Program-made: the position numbers and the translations under genes | Assembly (NCBI RefSeq): GCF_009914755.1 | Contig: NC_060932.1 | Length of the DNA stretch: 64,000 bases | DNA from: the human T2T-CHM13v2.0 reference genome, Homo sapiens | Direction: 5' to 3' (one strand) | Shown: piece by piece, positions 36,500 to 41,093 of the stretch | Layout: each line of letters begins with the position of its first letter | Numbering within the stretch: position 1 is the first letter of the stretch | Notes under the pieces: generated by a model | Database searches by the model: none | The model's input: only the letters and a program-made list of their open reading frames with translations | What the model was told of the DNA's origin: nothing

Positions 36500-36582
36500 A
36501 TATAAATACCTGACAACAAGGACATCCATAATTCAAAGTCATGCAGACCTAGTCTTTTACCACTTTTCCAAGACACACTAGC
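36500..36582 (+). mobile_element. L2a fragment, left part of the element split by the LTR composite
   Basis: ACAAGGACATCCATAAT...GACCTAGTCTTTTACCACTTTTCC AAGACACACTAGC resembles L2a ACAAGGCCCTACATGAT...GACCTCATCTCCTACCACTCTCCC...CAGCCACACTGGC. Confidence 0.55.
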
Positions 36583-36960
36583 TAATATGTTTTGGCTGTG
36601 TCCCCACCCAATTTTCATCTTGGATTGTGACTCCCACAATTCCCATGTGTCATGGGAGGAACCTAGTGGGAGGTGATTGAGTCATGGGGGCAGGTCTTTC
36701 CTGTGCTGTCTTCATGATAGTGAATGAGTCTCATGAGATCTGGTGGTTTTAAAAACGGGAGTTTCCCTGCACAAGCTCTTTCCTTGCCTGCTGCCATCCA
36801 TGCAAGACGTGACTTGCTTCTCCTTGCCTTCCTCCATGATTGTGAGGCTTCCCCAGCCACATGGAACTGTAAGTCCATTAAACCTTTTTCTTTTGTAAAT
36901 TGCCCAGTCTTGGGCAAATTGTCTTTATCAGCAGTGTGAGAACAAACGAATACAGTAAAT
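36583..36960 (+). mobile_element. THE1A/B MaLR LTR (36583-36954) plus the first 6 nt of THE1 internal sequence (GTAAAT)
   Basis: TAATATGTTTTGGCTGTGTCCCCACCCAA...CCATGATTGTGAGGCTTCCCCAGCC...GAATACA then GTAAAT (THE1-int begins GTAAATTGGTACC). Confidence 0.92.
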
Positions 36961-36963
36961 TTT

Positions 36964-38300
36964 GCTGTGATTCACCTATGGGGGCATGCCAGAGGCTCCA
37001 AACAGCATTCCTATCTGCCACTGATACCTCAAGCACCATTGGATATGCTAGGTCATATGGCCCAAGTGGCATAGCAGCTTGCACAGCAGCCTGGACCTGT
37101 TGCAGAGACTTATCCTGTTCTGGACCCCACTCAAAACTGTCAGCCTTTCGGGTCATGCGATAAATGGGCCATAGTAACACACTCAAATGAGGAATGTGTT
37201 GCTTCCAAAATCCAAATAGGCCCACTAGGCATTGTGCCTCTTTCTTGGGTGTAGGAGGGGCCAAATGCAGCAACTAATCCTTCACCTTAGAAAGAAGATC
37301 TCAACAGGCCCCACACCACTGGACCCCTAGGAATTTTACTGAGGTAGAAGGTCCCTGAATTTTAGTCAGATTCATTTCCCATCCTCTGGCACACAAATGT
37401 CTGACCAATAAGTCCAGTGTGTTTGCTACTTCTTGCTCACTGGATCCAGTCAGCATAATGTCATCAGTGTAATGGACCAGTGTGATATCTTGTGGATGGG
37501 AAAAGTGATCAAGGTCTCTTTGAAGAAGATAATGACACAAAGCTGGAGAGCTGATATATCCCTAAGGTAGGACAGTAAAGGTATATTGCTGGCCTTGCCA
37601 GCTGAAGGCAGATTGCTTCTGGTGGGCTTTAGGGACAGGAATGGAGAAAAAGGCATTTGCCAAACATTGGCTGCATACCAGTTACCAGGAGATGTGTTAA
37701 TTTGCTGAAGCAATGTAACCATATCTGGTACAGCAGCTGCAATTGGAGTCACCATTTGGTTAAGCTTACGATAATCCACTGTCATTCTCCTAGATCCGTC
37801 TGTCTTTTGCACAGGTCAAATAGGATAGTTGAATGGGGATGTGGTGGGAATCACTGCCCCTGCGTCTTTCAAGTCCTTGATGGTGGCATTAACCTCTGCA
37901 ATCTCTCCAGGGATGCAATATTGTTTTGGATTTACTATTTTTCTAGGTAGAGGCAGCTCTAATGGTTTCCATTTGGCCTTTCCCACCATAATAGTCCTCA
38001 CCCTACTAGTCAGTGAGCCAATGTAAGCGTTCTGCCGGCTGCTAAGTATGTCTATGCCAATTATGCATTCTGGCACATGGGAAACGACCACAGGATAAGT
38101 TGGGGGACCCATTGGACCCACTGTATGTTGGATCTGAGCTAAAATCCATTACTTACATTACCTTCATAAGGCCCTGCTTTAACTGGAGAACCACAATGAC
38201 ATTTTGGATCCCCTGGAATCAGCATTAGCTCAGAGTCAGTGTCCAGTAGTCCCTGAAATGTCTGATCATTTCCCTTCTCCTAATGCACAGTTGCCCTGGT
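36964..38300 (-). pseudogene. pol: HERV-L pro-pol remnant (protease and reverse transcriptase, truncated before RNase H/integrase)
   Basis: Frameshifted ORFs: protease-site-like GLLDTDSEL near 38225-38253; [37 protein letters not shown] (YxDD); [30 protein letters not shown]. Confidence 0.92.
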
Positions 38301-38479
38301 AAAAGGCCAGAGGTCTCCTTAGGGAAGGTTGGGAGAAAGATTAACAGCATAATTTGTCGGTAGTGTAGTGAGCTTCTTCCTCAGGGTGACCCAGCCTCCC
38401 TTTCATTCAGGGGGTTCTGGGTATTTAAACTGGCTAAAGTCTGAAAGTTGATTGAGGGGCTGTGATTGTCTGTTTTTAT

Positions 38480-40425
38480 AATTCAAATTAGTCTTTTGTC
38501 CACTTGACCTGAAGTTTTCTGCTTGTATAAATAAAATAGGAATGCTGTAGGCTTCCTATCAATTTCACTTCTAGGAACACTGTGATTAATCAGCCAATGC
38601 CAGAGCTCTACATGAGTCCAACTATTCTGATTGCTGCTTTGCCTCTGCTGTCCATTATGGTAGCTTTGCCCATCTTGCCTTTGATGGTTGAGTGCCACCA
38701 CTTGGCCCCTGCTACCTCAGGATCCAATTATTCCCATTGCATTTATTTATTAATTTGTTGAGATGGAGTCTAACTCTATCATTTAGGCTGGAGTGCAATG
38801 GCATAATCTTGGCTCACTGCAGCCACTGCATCCCAGGTTTAAGTGATTCTCCTGCCTCAGCTGCCCCAGTAGCTGGGACTACAGGTGTACACCACCACGC
38901 CTGACTAATTTTTGTATTTTTAGTAGAGACAGGGTTTCACCATGTTGGGCAGGCTGCTCTTGAACTGCTGACCTCAGGTGATCTGCCTGCCTTGGCCTCC
39001 CAAAGTGCTGGATTACAGGTATGAGCCATGGCACCTTGCATTTAAATTTTGTGGTTGAGTGACTGTGGTTCCCACTGTTAGATCTGACATAAAGAGAAGA
39101 GCAATTACAAGACTCTTCAAAGATGCAAGTGCTGCCCTCAACAAATCTATTTCACAAAGCATTGGTCAAGGGTATATCTTCTGGACCCTCCCAGCTGGGA
39201 TGGGTATGCCTAAAGTGACTAATCTACTCCACCATTCCAATCTCCCTAAGCCTTTGGATCCCTTTCTCTACACTAAACCAACAGAGATTAGGCATTTCTA
39301 GCTCACTCACAGTGGGCCATCTTTTAATCCATATTTCAGCTAACCAAGCAAATAAAGTACTAGAACCTTTTTTAATTCCTGAGCTACAACATTAAATATA
39401 GAATCCCTACTCAGTGGGTCCAAATCAATACCTCCAGCCTGATCCAACTCTATGTTCCTTCCACCGTCATACCACAACCTTAATATCCTTTCTCATGCCT
39501 GTTCTCCAGATTTCTGCTTATGTAAATTAGAAAACTCAAGCAGTTCTTTTTGAGTGTACTGCACCTCCTCATGGTTCCCACTCTGAACCTCACCTCTGGG
39601 GGCCTGCCAGGACTTTAGTCTAGTTAGAGGTCTAGAAGCAAACAGGGGTGTTGAGGGTGGCTCCTGAGGAGAATCAACATTATCTTGCCTGGCAACTGCC
39701 TCAGGGGAGGCCATCACTGTTGCCTCAGGCAGTGCAGGGTTTATCTCCTCAAACACAGGTGGAAAGGCTGATGGCAGTGTGGATCGAAAGGGAATGTTGC
39801 CACTACTGGGGATGGGGAAGCTGTTTCTTCTGGAAAAAAAGGTTCTTCAGAGTTTACAAGCTCAATGTACCCAGCTTCATCAGGGTCCTCCCACACATCC
39901 CCATTTCAAGTTGCAGGGTCCCCTACTTTTCCAATCAATGCCCTTGCTTTAATGGTAGACACTTGGCAGGGCTCTGTGGCAACCTTTCATTGCAGGTCAG
40001 CCACTTTCATGATAAGAGTTTGTGTCTAATTTTCCACAATTTCAGCTCTTTCCTTACAGGAGATAAGACTCTCACTCAGGGCAATCTTAGCAAATTTGAG
40101 GCTCAGTACCTGCTTCTGAAGCTGGGAGTTAAAATCCCTGAGTTCATCATTTTCTTTAATCACTTTGTCCAGTGAACTTAGGAGCAACCAACGAATTTCA
40201 TTATGTTCCTTGGTTCTCCACATATGGCCAAAGGTATTAGGTATAGTGTCAGTAAACTCCTTGCCTCTCGCTAGCAGTGAATCGGGAGTGTCAAATGCAT
40301 TTATTTTGCATAACTCTCTGAACAGTTCACACCAAGGACTGTAAGTGTTCTCCATACTATTAGAAGTAGAATCCTTAGCACTTTGGGATCAAGTCATATT
40401 ACGCAGCCAACTCTAGAAACCCCCA
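38480..40425 (-). pseudogene. gag: HERV-L gag remnant, interrupted by an Alu
   Basis: [58 protein letters not shown]...ELWHWLINHSVPRSEID; multiple stops and frameshifts. Confidence 0.88.
38746..39035 (-). mobile_element. AluS inserted in HERV-L gag
   Basis: Dimeric Alu; TSD TTGCATTTA at 38737 and 39036. Confidence 0.9.
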
Positions 40426-40469
40426 AACCAATAAAAGCACTCCATCCTTAATATTCTGTTCCCCTAGAA

Positions 40470-40484
40470 CCACTCTTGGTACCA
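40470..40484 (-). promoter_or_regulatory. HERV-L primer-binding site (tRNA-Leu type)
   Basis: - strand GATTT-TGGTACCAAGAGTGG directly after the LTR, which identifies this MLT2A1 as the 5' LTR. Confidence 0.75.
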
Positions 40485-40489
40485 AAATC

Positions 40490-41088
40490 TGTATTAGGGT
40501 TCTCTAGAGGGACAGAATTAATACTCCTTAATTGGATATATATATCCTATTAATACTCCTTAATTGGATATATATATATATCCTATTATATTAATACTCC
40601 TTAATTGGATATATATATCCTATTAATACTCCTTAATTGGATATATATATATATCCTATTATGTTAATACTCCTTAATAAACTCCTCCATATATATATTT
40701 TTATTATAGTTTATTAAGGAGTATTATCTCACACAATGGTCCCACAATAGGCCATCTACAAACTGAGGAGCAAGGAAGCCAGTCTGACTCCCAAAGCTGA
40801 AGAACTTGAAGTCTGATGTTCAAGGGCAGGAAACATACAGCATGGAAGAAAGATGTAGGCTGGGAGGCTACGCGAGTCTAGCCTTTTCATGTTTTTCTGC
40901 CTGCTTTTTATTCTGGCCATGCTGGCAGCTGATTAGATTGTGCCCACCCAGATTAAGGATGGGTCTGCCTTTCCCATCCCACTGACTCAAATGTAATCTC
41001 CTTTGGCAACACCCTCACAGACACACCCAGGAGCAATACTTTGCATCCTTCAATCCAATCAAGTTGACACTCAGTATTAACCATAACA
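40490..41088 (-). mobile_element. MLT2A1, 5' LTR of HERV-L
   Basis: - strand start TGTTATGGTTAATACTGAGTGTCAACTTGATTGGATTGAAGGATGCAAAGTATTG, end CCCTCTAGAGAACCCTAATACA; enlarged by an internal expansion. Confidence 0.9.
40518..40726. repeat. Higher-order tandem repeat (2 x 73 bp) plus a 19-bp inverted repeat inside MLT2A1
   Basis: TTAATACTCCTTAAT recurs at 40518, 40550, 40591, 40623 and 40664; 40665-40683 is the reverse complement of 40708-40726. Confidence 0.9.
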
Positions 41089-41093
41089 CAAGC

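What the first reader, a model, noticed from the sequence alone, without database searches (positions are those of the whole stretch)
36578..41093. THE1 LTR and half a HERV-L provirus fused in opposite orientations and sharing one target-site duplication: a possible two-donor integration
Seen in sequence: a complete THE1 LTR (+, 36583-36954) is joined at about 36960-36964 to HERV-L pol cut inside the RT/tether region. This continues through gag and the PBS to an MLT2A1 5' LTR (-, ending at 41088). Both outer ends are therefore U3 ends of LTRs from different families. The flanks are CTAGC (36578-36582) and CAAGC (41089-41093), a 4/5 match. The host L2a seems to continue across the unit: left ...AGACACACTAGC, right TTTCTT [L1] TTCCTTAAAC...GCCTTTGCACTTG, versus remembered L2a ...CCACACTGGC CTCCTT GCTGTTCCTCGAAC...GCCTTTGCACTTG. 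Established: ERV-L and MaLR elements make 5-bp TSDs; THE1 encodes no RT or integrase and is presumed to have used ERV-L enzymes; both families were active in early simians. Inference: one integrase complex inserted a THE1 cDNA end and a HERV-L cDNA end at the same site, and repair joined the inner ends. That would be physical evidence that HERV-L machinery mobilised THE1.
Basis: partly seen in the sequence, partly recalled or inferred. Interest (0 to 1): 0.8.

Follow-up and report, generated by a model that had tools for sequence, protein, structure and literature searches.

The report
THE1–HERV-L hybrid insertion, one target site
A fossil insertion on human chromosome 8 joins one repeat end of the helper-dependent element THE1 to half of its presumed helper retrovirus HERV-L at a single target site, which looks like direct physical evidence that DNA copies of both were handled together by one integration machinery.

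Summary
A complete THE1-type LTR (+, 36583-36954) is joined to a HERV-L provirus cut after RT. That provirus lies on the minus strand and runs through gag and the PBS to an MLT2-type 5' LTR ending at 41088. The flanks are CTAGC and CAAGC.

New here: the 6 nt between the THE1 LTR and pol (GTAAAT, 36955-36960) are not random filler. They are the THE1 leader that lies between the LTR's final CA and the primer-binding site in 6 of 29 THE1 copies examined; none of the other 23 has it. So the THE1 part stops exactly at the expected right end of its linear cDNA. That marks end-joining, not integrase strand transfer.

An L2 profile test places both flanks at one L2 site. The best reconstruction is gap-free and contains one copy of the 5-mer (0-1 of 1500 random left flanks score as well). 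An adjacent L1 keeps single-base resolution uncertain.

Pattern searches for "LTR + GTAAAT + non-PBS" found two more MaLR–HERV-L hybrids. The one on chr1 carries the HERV-L 3' half in direct orientation with flanks CCTAC/CCTTC; the one on chr6 is only partly read.

Best reading (about 0.62): one integrase-mediated insertion of a THE1 cDNA and a HERV-L cDNA fragment whose inner ends were end-joined. Whether joining came before or after integration cannot be told. No primate orthologues could be examined.

The parts
36555..36582 (+). Left host flank, old L2 3'-end fragment. Its last 12 nt AGACACACTAGC align to L2 copies' AGCCACACTGGC. The last 5 nt CTAGC are the left copy of the putative target-site duplication.
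   Evidence: Alignment of 30 L2 copies; L2 profile alignments; random-flank control gives 0-13 of 1500 depending on reconstruction. No pairwise hit for the left flank alone.
36583..36954 (+). Complete THE1-type (MaLR) LTR, TAATATG...GAATACA. Its U3 end faces the left flank.
   Evidence: Full-length matches to other copies at 86-89% identity; ends compared with 29 copies.
36955..36960 (+). GTAAAT, the THE1 leader between the LTR's CA and the primer-binding site. It marks the right terminus of the linear THE1 cDNA. The T at 36961 fits both THE1 (first PBS base) and HERV-L.
   Evidence: 6 of 29 THE1 loci (5' LTRs) read ...ACA GTAAAT/GTAAAC TGGTACC...; 0 of the other 23 start with GTAAAT. HERV-L copies read differently at these positions.
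36961..40466 (-). HERV-L internal region, 5' half only: leader, gag, protease-like, RT. It is cut about 340 nt after the end of the RVT_1 match, before RNase H, integrase and dUTPase. All frames are broken by stops.
   Evidence: ORFs; Pfam RVT_1 E=1.3e-11 on 37304-37561; 84-93% identity to 29 HERV-L loci over up to 1.6 kb.
38746..39035 (-). Alu inserted later into the HERV-L part, flanked by TTGCATTTA (38737-38745 and 39036-39044).
   Evidence: Read from the sequence. Alu identity is by recall of the Alu sequence, and by Alu-sized cross hits.
40467..40489 (-). HERV-L primer-binding-site-like TGGTACCAAGAGTGGTTC (40467-40484), preceded on its strand by the 5-nt spacer GATTT (40485-40489).
   Evidence: Read. 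Same type as the THE1 PBS TGGTACCAGTAGAGTGGG seen.
40490..41088 (-). MLT2-type HERV-L 5' LTR. Its U3 end (TGTTATGGTT...) faces the right flank. It contains a 2 x 73 nt tandem duplication at 40517-40662.
   Evidence: 89-92% identity to 39 other copies, 20 of 39 starting exactly at 41088; tandem copies.
41089..41093 (+). CAAGC, right copy of the putative 5-bp target-site duplication (4 of 5 with CTAGC).
   Evidence: In the L2 profile it behaves as a 5-nt insertion (reconstruction E against B).
41094..41099 (+). TTTCTT, read either as L2 (aligns to CTCCTT) or as part of the L1 tail or L1 TSD. This ambiguity limits the resolution of the L2 test.
41100..41679 (-). 5'-truncated L1, a separate insertion. 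L1 homology ends at 41678-41680; its last bases CTGT also fit L2.
   Evidence: 39 non-self hits each.
41680..41979 (+). Right host flank, the same L2 3'-end fragment continuing.
   Evidence: Single-sequence nhmmer hits collinear with 20 of 29 L2 copies at the E<=1 reporting threshold, 15 of them at E<0.05; motif GCCTTTGCACTTG has 1075 genome matches against 1 control.

Best explanation
This is the fossil of one aberrant integration event that used two reverse-transcribed DNAs. One was a THE1 (MaLR) cDNA. The other was a partial HERV-L cDNA consisting of its 5' LTR, gag, protease and RT.

Each DNA contributed an authentic LTR terminus: the U3 end of THE1 and the U3 end of the HERV-L 5' LTR. Integrase inserted these two termini together into a single L2 target, giving the family-typical 5-bp duplication (CTAGC, now CTAGC/CAAGC).

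The two inner ends were not joined by integrase. The full right terminus of the THE1 linear DNA (...ACA plus the 6-nt leader GTAAAT, ending exactly at the primer-binding-site boundary) was end-joined to a broken or incomplete end of the HERV-L DNA inside pol. There is at most 1 nt of overlap. The junction resembles a 2-LTR-circle junction, but between two molecules.

If the THE1 donor was full length, its two LTRs later recombined to the single LTR seen today.

Shown: the anatomy, the leader at the junction, single-site placement within about 10 nt, the 4/5 flank match, and the recurrence of the junction type. Inferred: that integrase made the outer joints, that non-homologous end-joining made the inner one, that all of this was one event, and the order of joining and integration.
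For: 1. The outer ends are exact LTR termini. THE1 copies align from base 1/3. MLT2 homology starts at 41088 in 20 of 39 copies.

2. The flanks match 4 of 5. Genuine THE1 TSDs of this age are 4/5 or 5/5 in 7 of 14 cases; unrelated flank pairs reach this in 5 of 182.

3. The L2 profile places both flanks at one site. Reconstruction B (one 5-mer) aligns without gaps at 26.8 bits, and 0 of 1500 or 1 of 1500 random left flanks reach that score. Adding the second 5-mer forces a 5-nt insertion and lowers the score to 23.7 bits.

4. GTAAAT after the LTR equals the THE1 leader in 6 of 29 copies and is absent from the other 23. The chance of this 6-mer at a given place is about 1 in 4096. Normally integrated THE1 copies go straight from ...ACA into the TSD.

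5. It is not a nested insertion. The left flank of THE1 is not HERV-L, and no other HERV-L piece lies in the window.

6. The junction type recurs. Among 19 loci with 'LTR + GTAAAT + non-PBS', two continue directly into HERV-L.
- chr1:188078498: pol 3' half with Pfam rve (5e-8) and dUTPase (9.5e-9), an MLT2 3' LTR, and flanks CCTAC/CCTTC.
- chr6:122359385: dUTPase region.
- One further locus continues into the 3' end of THE1's own internal region.

7. The LTR tips and PBS of the two families are nearly the same: TGATATGGTT against TGTTATGGTT, both ending CTAATACA, and both PBS starting TGGTACCA. This fits use of one integrase.

8. [quoted passage not shown]
Against: - No orthologous empty or intermediate site could be examined, so the all-at-once history is inferred.
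- The duplication is 4/5, not 5/5.
- L2 resolution is limited by the adjacent L1 and by the low-complexity L2 sequence CTCCTTGCTGTTCCTT. If the last 5 L1-homologous bases are credited to L1 only, a reading without duplication (18.6 bits, 5 of 1500) scores about the same as the duplication reading (17.8 bits, 13 of 1500).
- The left flank alone is not recognisably L2 in pairwise search.
- The same sequence would arise from a THE1 5' LTR plus 6-7 nt of leader, followed by a chromosomal deletion that happened to start at the PBS boundary.
- The chr1 and chr6 loci were found by a search that required the leader, so the leader is not independent evidence at those loci.
- Most leader-plus-non-PBS loci are something else or unknown: 4 of 19 are ordinary TSDs that happen to read GTAAA, and 10 of 19 are unexplained.
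- Best-copy identities differ somewhat: THE1 86-89%, MLT2 LTR 89-92%, HERV-L internal 84-93%. Equal age is therefore not shown.
Confidence: 0.62

Rival explanations
1. Two separate, ordinary integrations hit the same or an adjacent 5-mer of the L2: a full-length THE1 and a full-length HERV-L in opposite orientation. A later chromosomal deletion then removed everything from THE1 leader position 7 through the THE1 3' LTR, the shared TSD, the HERV-L 3' LTR and the 3' half of pol.
For: Deletions between neighbouring repeats are common. Repeated insertion into one target site is documented for other transposons (PMC5932611, passages). The reading without a shared duplication is not excluded by the L2 profile (A 18.6 against C 17.8 bits). 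In mouse, 2 of 4 MERV-L/MaLR mutant alleles are rearranged partial elements with deletions (PMC6466679, passage).
Against: It needs three coincidences:
- two insertions within about 10 nt of each other;
- a deletion end exactly at the leader/PBS boundary;
- a 4/5 flank match (5 of 182 by chance).

The chr1 hybrid shows the same boundary together with its own 4/5 flank match. No deletion remnant of the THE1 internal region or the HERV-L 3' LTR is left.
Confidence: 0.15
2. The chimera was made during reverse transcription. THE1 and HERV-L RNAs were packaged together, and the polymerase switched templates at the THE1 primer-binding-site boundary. The single hybrid cDNA was then integrated normally.
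For: The junction lies exactly where minus-strand synthesis starts. Chimeric elements between a non-autonomous LTR element and its autonomous partner are reported in rice (Dasheng/RIRE2). I saw this only as a statement in PMC5473765; the original paper is not held. The chr1 and chr6 hybrids are in direct orientation.
Against: - In the window the two parts are inverted, which simple copy-choice cannot give.
- The hybrids carry complete LTRs of two different families. Normal strand transfers make both LTRs of a cDNA alike.
- There is no homology at the junction: 2 of 18 bases match between the THE1 PBS and the pol sequence after GTAAAT, counted by eye.
Confidence: 0.1
3. Integrase played no part. 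Loose THE1 and HERV-L cDNA pieces were captured at a chromosome break by end-joining, and the 4/5 flank match is chance.
For: The inner junction is clearly of the end-joined kind. Capture of retroelement cDNA at chromosome breaks is known from yeast (recalled, not checked here).
Against: Both outer ends stop exactly at the LTR tips and lack the terminal extra bases that the inner THE1 end keeps. A 5-bp near-duplication sits at exactly the family-typical length, and L2 has lost at most a few bases.
Confidence: 0.06

Closest known systems
Coordinated ('concerted') integration of two separate donor DNA molecules by retroviral integrase in vitro
   Same: Two viral DNA ends from different molecules are inserted into one target with the virus-specific short duplication. 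Ends of the same kind (here U3 + U3) can be paired. Source: passage in PMC2857682; pairing of like ends is recalled.
   Different: Known as a test-tube reaction with short donors. Here it would be a germ-line event with donors from two different element families, followed by rejoining of the inner ends. It cannot be separated from prior end-joining of the two cDNAs.
2-LTR circle junctions of unintegrated retroviral DNA
   Same: An LTR terminus that keeps the bases integrase would remove, joined by host end-joining (recalled general knowledge). The THE1 side of the junction keeps all 6 nt up to the PBS boundary.
   Different: The partner end is not the other LTR tip of the same molecule. It is a broken end inside pol of another element, and the product became integrated.
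Chimeric Dasheng/RIRE2 elements of rice (non-autonomous LTR element and its autonomous partner)
   Same: Physical hybrids between a helper-dependent LTR element and its presumed helper, used as an argument for shared machinery (statement in PMC5473765). The chr1 and chr6 hybrids have this direct arrangement.
   Different: I could not read the original paper, so its junction details are unknown to me. The window's hybrid is inverted, with two U3 ends outermost and an end-joined terminus at the joint.
Nested insertion or solo LTR inside a provirus
   Same: A THE1 LTR abutting HERV-L pol looks like a nested insertion at first sight. A likely example of nesting was seen at C2:175212271-175212899 (not followed to its flanks).
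   Different: The host element does not continue on the other side of the LTR, there is no TSD of pol sequence, and the LTR is followed by its own leader.
Double insertion of transposons into one target site (Drosophila)
   Same: Two elements at one target site (PMC5932611, passages).
   Different: That case involves two sequential insertions of the same element, with the target site kept between them. Here there are two families, no target copy between them, and one element is truncated.

Membership tests
THE1 / MaLR LTR | Full-length homology to other genomic THE1-type LTRs, ends TG...CA | tested here: met
   Query 1/3-372 matched at 86-89% identity. The start reads TAATATG where most of the 29 compared copies read TGATATG (2 also read TAATATG), and the end is ...AATACA. 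The subfamily was not determined because no Dfam or RepeatMasker is available here.
THE1 / MaLR LTR | 5' LTRs are followed by leader GTAAAT and a TGG... primer-binding site | tested here: met
   6 of 29 copies; many more. The window has the leader but no PBS.
HERV-L (ERV-L, class III) provirus | pol with reverse transcriptase on the same strand as the LTR and PBS; homology to other HERV-L copies | tested here: met
RVT_1 E=1.3e-11; 84-93% identity to 29 loci; LTR 89-92% identity to 39 copies.
HERV-L (ERV-L, class III) provirus | Complete provirus: two like LTRs, RNase H, integrase, dUTPase | tested here: not met
   Only the 5' LTR to RT is present, and no other piece lies in the window. Integrase and dUTPase were seen only in the chr1 hybrid.
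Ordinary integrase-made LTR-element insertion | 5-bp target-site duplication directly outside both LTR tips | tested here: inconclusive
   CTAGC/CAAGC match 4 of 5 (7 of 14 genuine cases against 5 of 182 controls reach 4/5 or better). The L2 profile favours one extra 5-mer (26.8 against 23.7 bits) but cannot exclude no duplication.
Ordinary integrase-made LTR-element insertion | Both ends belong to one element with two direct LTRs of one family | tested here: not met
   The two ends are LTRs of different families in opposite orientation.
Nested insertion of THE1 into HERV-L | HERV-L continues on both sides of the THE1 LTR, with a 5-bp duplication of pol sequence | tested here: not met
   The left flank is not HERV-L and the right side starts with the THE1 leader.
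Two-donor concerted integration | Two donor ends inserted at one site in one event, with no intermediate state in any lineage | not testable with these tools
   Needs orthologous loci of other primates and an outgroup. None is held.

The most novel reading that the evidence does not exclude
MaLR–HERV-L hybrids are a recurrent class of germ-line insertions, with at least three in this genome (chr8, chr1, chr6). They arise because THE1/MST and HERV-L cDNAs shared a particle or pre-integration complex. If so, they are the first direct physical record that ERV-L integrase mobilised MaLRs.

They would also fix the true right terminus of the MaLR linear cDNA at 6 nt beyond the conserved CA, at the PBS boundary.

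The HERV-L 'halves' may reflect a break at a central single-stranded gap of the linear DNA, as in foamy viruses. The chr8 and chr1 breakpoints lie 203 nt apart, and the chr1 half starts 10 nt after an AAAGTGGGT motif that resembles the 3' polypurine tract AAAGGGTGGACT. The PFV gap is 144-731 nt (PMC6669543). The chr6 breakpoint lies about 1.2 kb further on and does not fit the gap idea well.
Probability: 0.3. Interest if true: 0.8.

Novelty: new variant of a known kind. Interest (0 to 1): 0.66.

Why it matters
MaLRs (THE1, MST, MLT1; MT and ORR1 in mouse) are among the most numerous LTR elements of mammals, yet they encode no enzymes. Their dependence on ERV-L has so far rested on sequence likeness.

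A hybrid insertion in which a THE1 end and a HERV-L end share one integrase-type target duplication would show that both DNAs were in the same place at the same time and were accepted by the same integrase. The end-joined junction preserves the exact end of the THE1 cDNA. That gives a rare view of replication intermediates of elements extinct for tens of millions of years.

The junction signature (LTR + GTAAAT + non-PBS) also gives a simple handle for finding more such events genome-wide.

I found no description of such hybrids. Searches (THE1, HERV-L, MaLR, integrase; chimeric LTR retrotransposon, TSD, inverted orientation; MaLR, ERV-L, non-autonomous, mobilized) returned nothing that did so, judged from titles and abstract starts. 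Subscription papers are not covered.

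Tried and rejected
- Single-sequence genome search with the left flank found only itself. Pairwise nhmmer of the left flank against 29 L2 copies found nothing, so L2 identity of the left flank rests on the profile test only.
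- The first L2 alignment (-260..+200) was too ragged to read. It was redone on -150..+13.
- Treating TTTCTT (41094-41099) as the left copy of an L1 TSD, so that L2 resumes at 41678, scores no better than random left flanks: F 11.9 bits (166 of 1500) and G 11.7 bits (738 of 1500); D 10.9 bits (666 of 1500). I dropped that reading, although the L1 endonuclease-like site TTCCTT|AAAC had suggested it.
- A 13-nt pattern for 'LTR end + leader' was unspecific (299 matches against 305 control) and was replaced by 21-nt patterns.
- Most leader-plus-non-PBS loci turned out not to be hybrids: 4 of 19 are solo LTRs with a GTAAA-like TSD, 1 abuts L1-like sequence and 10 are unknown.
- Age comparison from best-copy identities is not decisive.
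- Six of seven HERV-L ORFs gave no Pfam family.
- A 16/20 similarity between THE1 36673-36692 and pol 36967-36986 was judged chance.
- An ectopic THE1-THE1 recombination model was rejected. It would leave pol directly after ...ACA and would break L2 continuity.
- Rows with 2 mismatches (600 unlisted) and with 1 mismatch (884 unlisted) were never seen, so the count of hybrids is a lower bound.

Full report
**What is there**

The window is human chr8:132246001-132310000 (T2T-CHM13). From 36583 to 36954 the + strand carries a complete THE1-type MaLR LTR, TAATATG...GAATACA. A genome search with it scored 40 of 11424 candidates. Most non-self copies align from base 1 or 3 to base 370-372 of 372 at 86-89% identity, so both LTR tips are intact.

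From 36961 rightwards the - strand carries HERV-L:
- Stop-to-stop ORFs include a YTDD reverse-transcriptase piece, a DTDS protease-like piece and gag-side pieces.
- Pfam finds RVT_1 (E=1.3e-11) on 37304-37561; the other 6 of the 7 ORFs I submitted match no family.
- 29 other HERV-L loci align at 84-93% identity over up to 1.6 kb.
- The internal part ends in a PBS-like TGGTACCAAGAGTGGTTC (40467-40484) and a 5-nt spacer (40485-40489).
- An MLT2-type LTR follows at 40490-41088. Its outer tip is confirmed by other copies: of 39 non-self hits at 89-92% identity, 20 start exactly at 41088, 10 start 1-8 nt further out and 9 start inside.

An Alu (38746-39035, TSD TTGCATTTA) and a 2 x 73-nt tandem duplication in the LTR are later changes. 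A 5'-truncated L1 on the - strand occupies about 41100-41679.

**The inner junction**

A 221-nt query across the junction found no second copy. All 39 non-self hits (40 scored of 4367 candidates) are HERV-L pol and begin at query 101-107, which is window 36960-36966.

I extended 29 copies without gaps. HERV-L homology stops at 36961-36965, and none of the 29 matches more than 2 of the 5 bases at 36956-36960. So 6 nt, GTAAAT (36955-36960), lie between the LTR's CA and pol.

These 6 nt are not filler. In 6 of 29 THE1 loci, the ones that are 5' LTRs of full-length elements...ACTAATACA is followed by GTAAAT (once GTAAAC) and then TGGTACCAGTAGAGTGGG, the primer-binding site. None of the other 23 has GTAAAT after the LTR, and several of them go straight into a 5-bp TSD.

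The THE1 part of the window therefore ends exactly at the U5-leader/PBS boundary. By the established scheme of reverse transcription this is where minus-strand synthesis starts, and so it is the right terminus of the linear cDNA. Integrase strand transfer joins the CA and loses the bases beyond it. A junction that keeps them is the mark of end-joining, as in 2-LTR circles (general knowledge, recalled). The T at 36961 fits both partners.

**Is it one site?**

The right flank is plainly L2. At the E<=1 reporting threshold it gives collinear single-sequence nhmmer hits to 20 of 29 L2 copies, 15 of them at E<0.05. I fetched those copies through the motif GCCTTTGCACTTG, which has 1075 genome matches against 1 for the control. 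The copies read ...CCACACTGGC CTCCTT GCTGT TCCTnGAAC....

The window reads AGACACACTAGC | unit | CAAGC TTTCTT | L1 ...ACTGT | TCCTTAAAC.

The left flank alone gives no pairwise hit. I therefore tested it with an L2 profile built from 29 copies, replacing the real left flank by 1500 random 60-mers from the window:

| Reconstruction | Content | Bits | Random flanks reaching it |
|---|---|---|---|
| B | one 5-mer, TTTCTT, then from 41675 | 26.8 (gap-free) | 1 of 1500; 0 of 1500 |
| E | as B with the second 5-mer kept (needs a 5-nt insertion) | 23.7 | 27 of 1500 |
| A | last 5 L1-homologous bases given to L1 only, no duplication | 18.6 | 5 of 1500 |
| C | as A, with duplication | 17.8 | 13 of 1500 |
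| D, F, G | skip TTTCTT | 10.9-11.9 | 166-738 of 1500 |

The safe conclusion is that both flanks belong to one L2 site, with at most about 10 nt lost or gained. A single 5-bp duplication is the best reading but is not proven.

The 4/5 match was calibrated on real data. Of 14 evaluable THE1 LTRs, 2 have 5/5, 5 have 4/5, 3 have 3/5 and 4 have fewer matches. Unrelated flank pairs reach 4/5 or better in 5 of 182 cases. Both 5-mers carry A at position 3 where L2 copies mostly have G. This fits duplication of an already diverged CTAGC.

**What it is not**

- Not a nested insertion. The left neighbour of THE1 is not HERV-L, and the missing HERV-L 3' half is nowhere in the window.
- Not a copy of a hybrid located elsewhere.
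- Not explained by ectopic recombination between two THE1 LTRs. That would leave pol directly after the CA and would remove L2 sequence.

**Recurrence**

I searched the genome for an LTR end plus GTAAAT followed by something other than a PBS.
- A 13-nt anchor was unspecific (299 matches against 305 control).
- A 21-nt anchor gave 700 matches against 11 control (100 rows seen: 7 with no mismatch, 88 with one, 5 with two).
- A degenerate version gave 984 matches against 0 control (47 zero-mismatch rows seen).

By eye, 19 loci have a non-PBS sequence after an exact leader. I fetched 14 of them with both ends and 5 with the downstream part only. Classification:

| Loci | What follows the leader |
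|---|---|
| 4 | ordinary solo LTRs whose TSD happens to read GTAAA, ATAAA or GTTAA |
| 1 (C12:72363701) | leader kept, then a perfect TSD GATTC/GATTC |
| 1 | the last ~42 nt of an LTR |
| 1 | L1-like sequence |
| 1 (C9:7894563) | the 3' end of THE1's own internal region |
| 2 | HERV-L |
| 10 | unexplained |

The chr1 case (188078498, - strand) was followed further. Its parts are:
- a MaLR LTR, 74% identical to the window's;
- GTAAAT;
- HERV-L pol in the same orientation, starting 203 nt downstream of the window's breakpoint;
- integrase (rve, 5e-8) and dUTPase (9.5e-9) ORFs;
- an MLT2-type 3' LTR ending ...GACTAATACA.

Its flanks are CCTAC and CCTTC, again 4 of 5. Its left flank is not HERV-L: 25 matches to HERV-L copies (24 different loci; one shows two places and one of those rows aligns in a different register) read ...GTGGGTCGTGCAC or a close variant before AGCAGCATTCC in 24 rows. 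Its junction is unique in the genome (0 of 39).

The chr6 case (122359385) continues into the dUTPase region: 83% identity over 64 nt to the chr1 element and 92% over 36 nt to L009. Its outer ends were not examined.

These two loci were found by requiring the leader, so the leader is not independent evidence there. The independent points are that HERV-L follows directly in 2 of 19 loci, and that chr1 has its own flank match.

**Mechanism**

The simplest account for all three hybrids has four steps:
1. A MaLR linear cDNA keeps its full right terminus.
2. That terminus is end-joined to a HERV-L cDNA fragment that still owns one authentic LTR tip.
3. The resulting molecule has two integrase-competent tips: MaLR U3 plus HERV-L U3 in the window, MaLR U3 plus HERV-L U5 on chr1.
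4. It is inserted with the family's 5-bp duplication.

The data cannot order these steps.

The tips of the two families are nearly identical: TGATATGGTT against TGTTATGGTT, both ending CTAATACA, both with a 5-6-nt spacer and a TGGTACCA... PBS. One integrase could therefore serve both.

The HERV-L fragment in the window (5' LTR to mid-pol) is what an unfinished plus strand or a break in the linear DNA would leave. This is inference.

The single THE1 LTR could be a later solo-LTR collapse of a full-length donor. About three in four THE1 insertions in my sample are solo (17 solo against 6 full-length, estimated). It could also be an LTR-length replication intermediate.

**Rivals**

- Two independent insertions plus a deletion (0.15). 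This needs three coincidences: insertions within about 10 nt, a deletion end exactly at the PBS boundary, and the flank match.
- Template switching in the particle (0.10). This cannot give the inverted arrangement, nor two different complete LTRs.
- Integrase-free capture at a chromosome break (0.06). This does not explain the exact outer tips and the 5-bp near-duplication.

**Limits**

- No other primate genome, Dfam or RepeatMasker was available.
- Subfamilies and ages are not determined. Best-copy identities of 86-89%, 89-92% and 84-93% do not settle equal age.
- Only part of the pattern hits could be seen or fetched.

**Literature**

| Paper | What I saw |
|---|---|
| PMC2857682 | passages: uncoordinated integration and coordinated integration of two donors |
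| PMC5932611 | passages: double insertions at one target site |
| PMC6466679 | passages: MaLR non-autonomous and related to MERV-L; rearranged partial insertions |
| PMC5473765 | passage citing chimeric Dasheng/RIRE2 elements |
| PMC6669543 | passage: gapped foamy-virus linear DNA |

Jiang et al. 2002 is not held. Searches showed no description of MaLR–HERV-L hybrids in their listings.

**Verdict**

It is a new variant of known processes, of clear interest to people who study retroelement replication.

Noticed in passing
G000 C1:188074461-188078912 (loci L095, L106, L107): Second hybrid. A MaLR LTR + GTAAAT is joined directly to the 3' half of HERV-L (integrase, dUTPase, MLT2-type 3' LTR) in the same orientation. 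Flanks are CCTAC/CCTTC. The junction is unique in the genome.
   Followed up: yes
G000 C6:122359385-122359419 (locus L097): Third hybrid candidate. A MaLR LTR end + GTAAAT continues into the HERV-L dUTPase region.
   Followed up: partly
G000 C12:72363701-72363735 (locus L094): A MaLR LTR keeps the leader GTAAAT and is then flanked by a perfect 5-bp duplication, GATTC...GATTC. It looks as if the unprocessed terminus itself was integrated.
   Followed up: partly
G000 C9:7894563-7894597 (locus L109) and C12:38701004 (locus L093): LTR + leader joined to the 3' end of THE1's own internal region (L109), or to the last ~42 nt of an LTR (L093). These may be the same kind of end-joined terminus with a MaLR fragment as partner.
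   Followed up: partly
G000 C15:51589098-51589761 and C2:175212271-175212899 (the latter in locus L079): Pairs of THE1 LTRs in opposite orientation abutting at one coordinate, one complete and one truncated. Probably nested insertions; the far side was not checked.
   Followed up: no
window 38737-39044: Alu on the - strand inside the HERV-L part, with a 9-bp TSD TTGCATTTA.
   Followed up: partly
window 40517-40662: Exact 2 x 73-nt tandem duplication, AT-rich and partly palindromic, inside the MLT2-type LTR.
   Followed up: no
window 41094-41683: The 5'-truncated L1 (- strand) has no clear TSD if L2 is read as continuous. Its 5' end shares CTGT with the L2 target, which looks like microhomology at the 5' junction.
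   Followed up: partly
window 36673-36692 and 36967-36986: A 16/20 direct similarity between the THE1 LTR and the pol sequence just past the junction. Judged chance.
   Followed up: no
window 40485-40489; THE1 loci: Both HERV-L (GATTT) and THE1 (GTAAAT) have 5-6 nt between the LTR's CA and the PBS, more than the 2 nt usual in retroviruses (the latter recalled). This implies removal of an unusually long 3' piece at normal integration.
   Followed up: no
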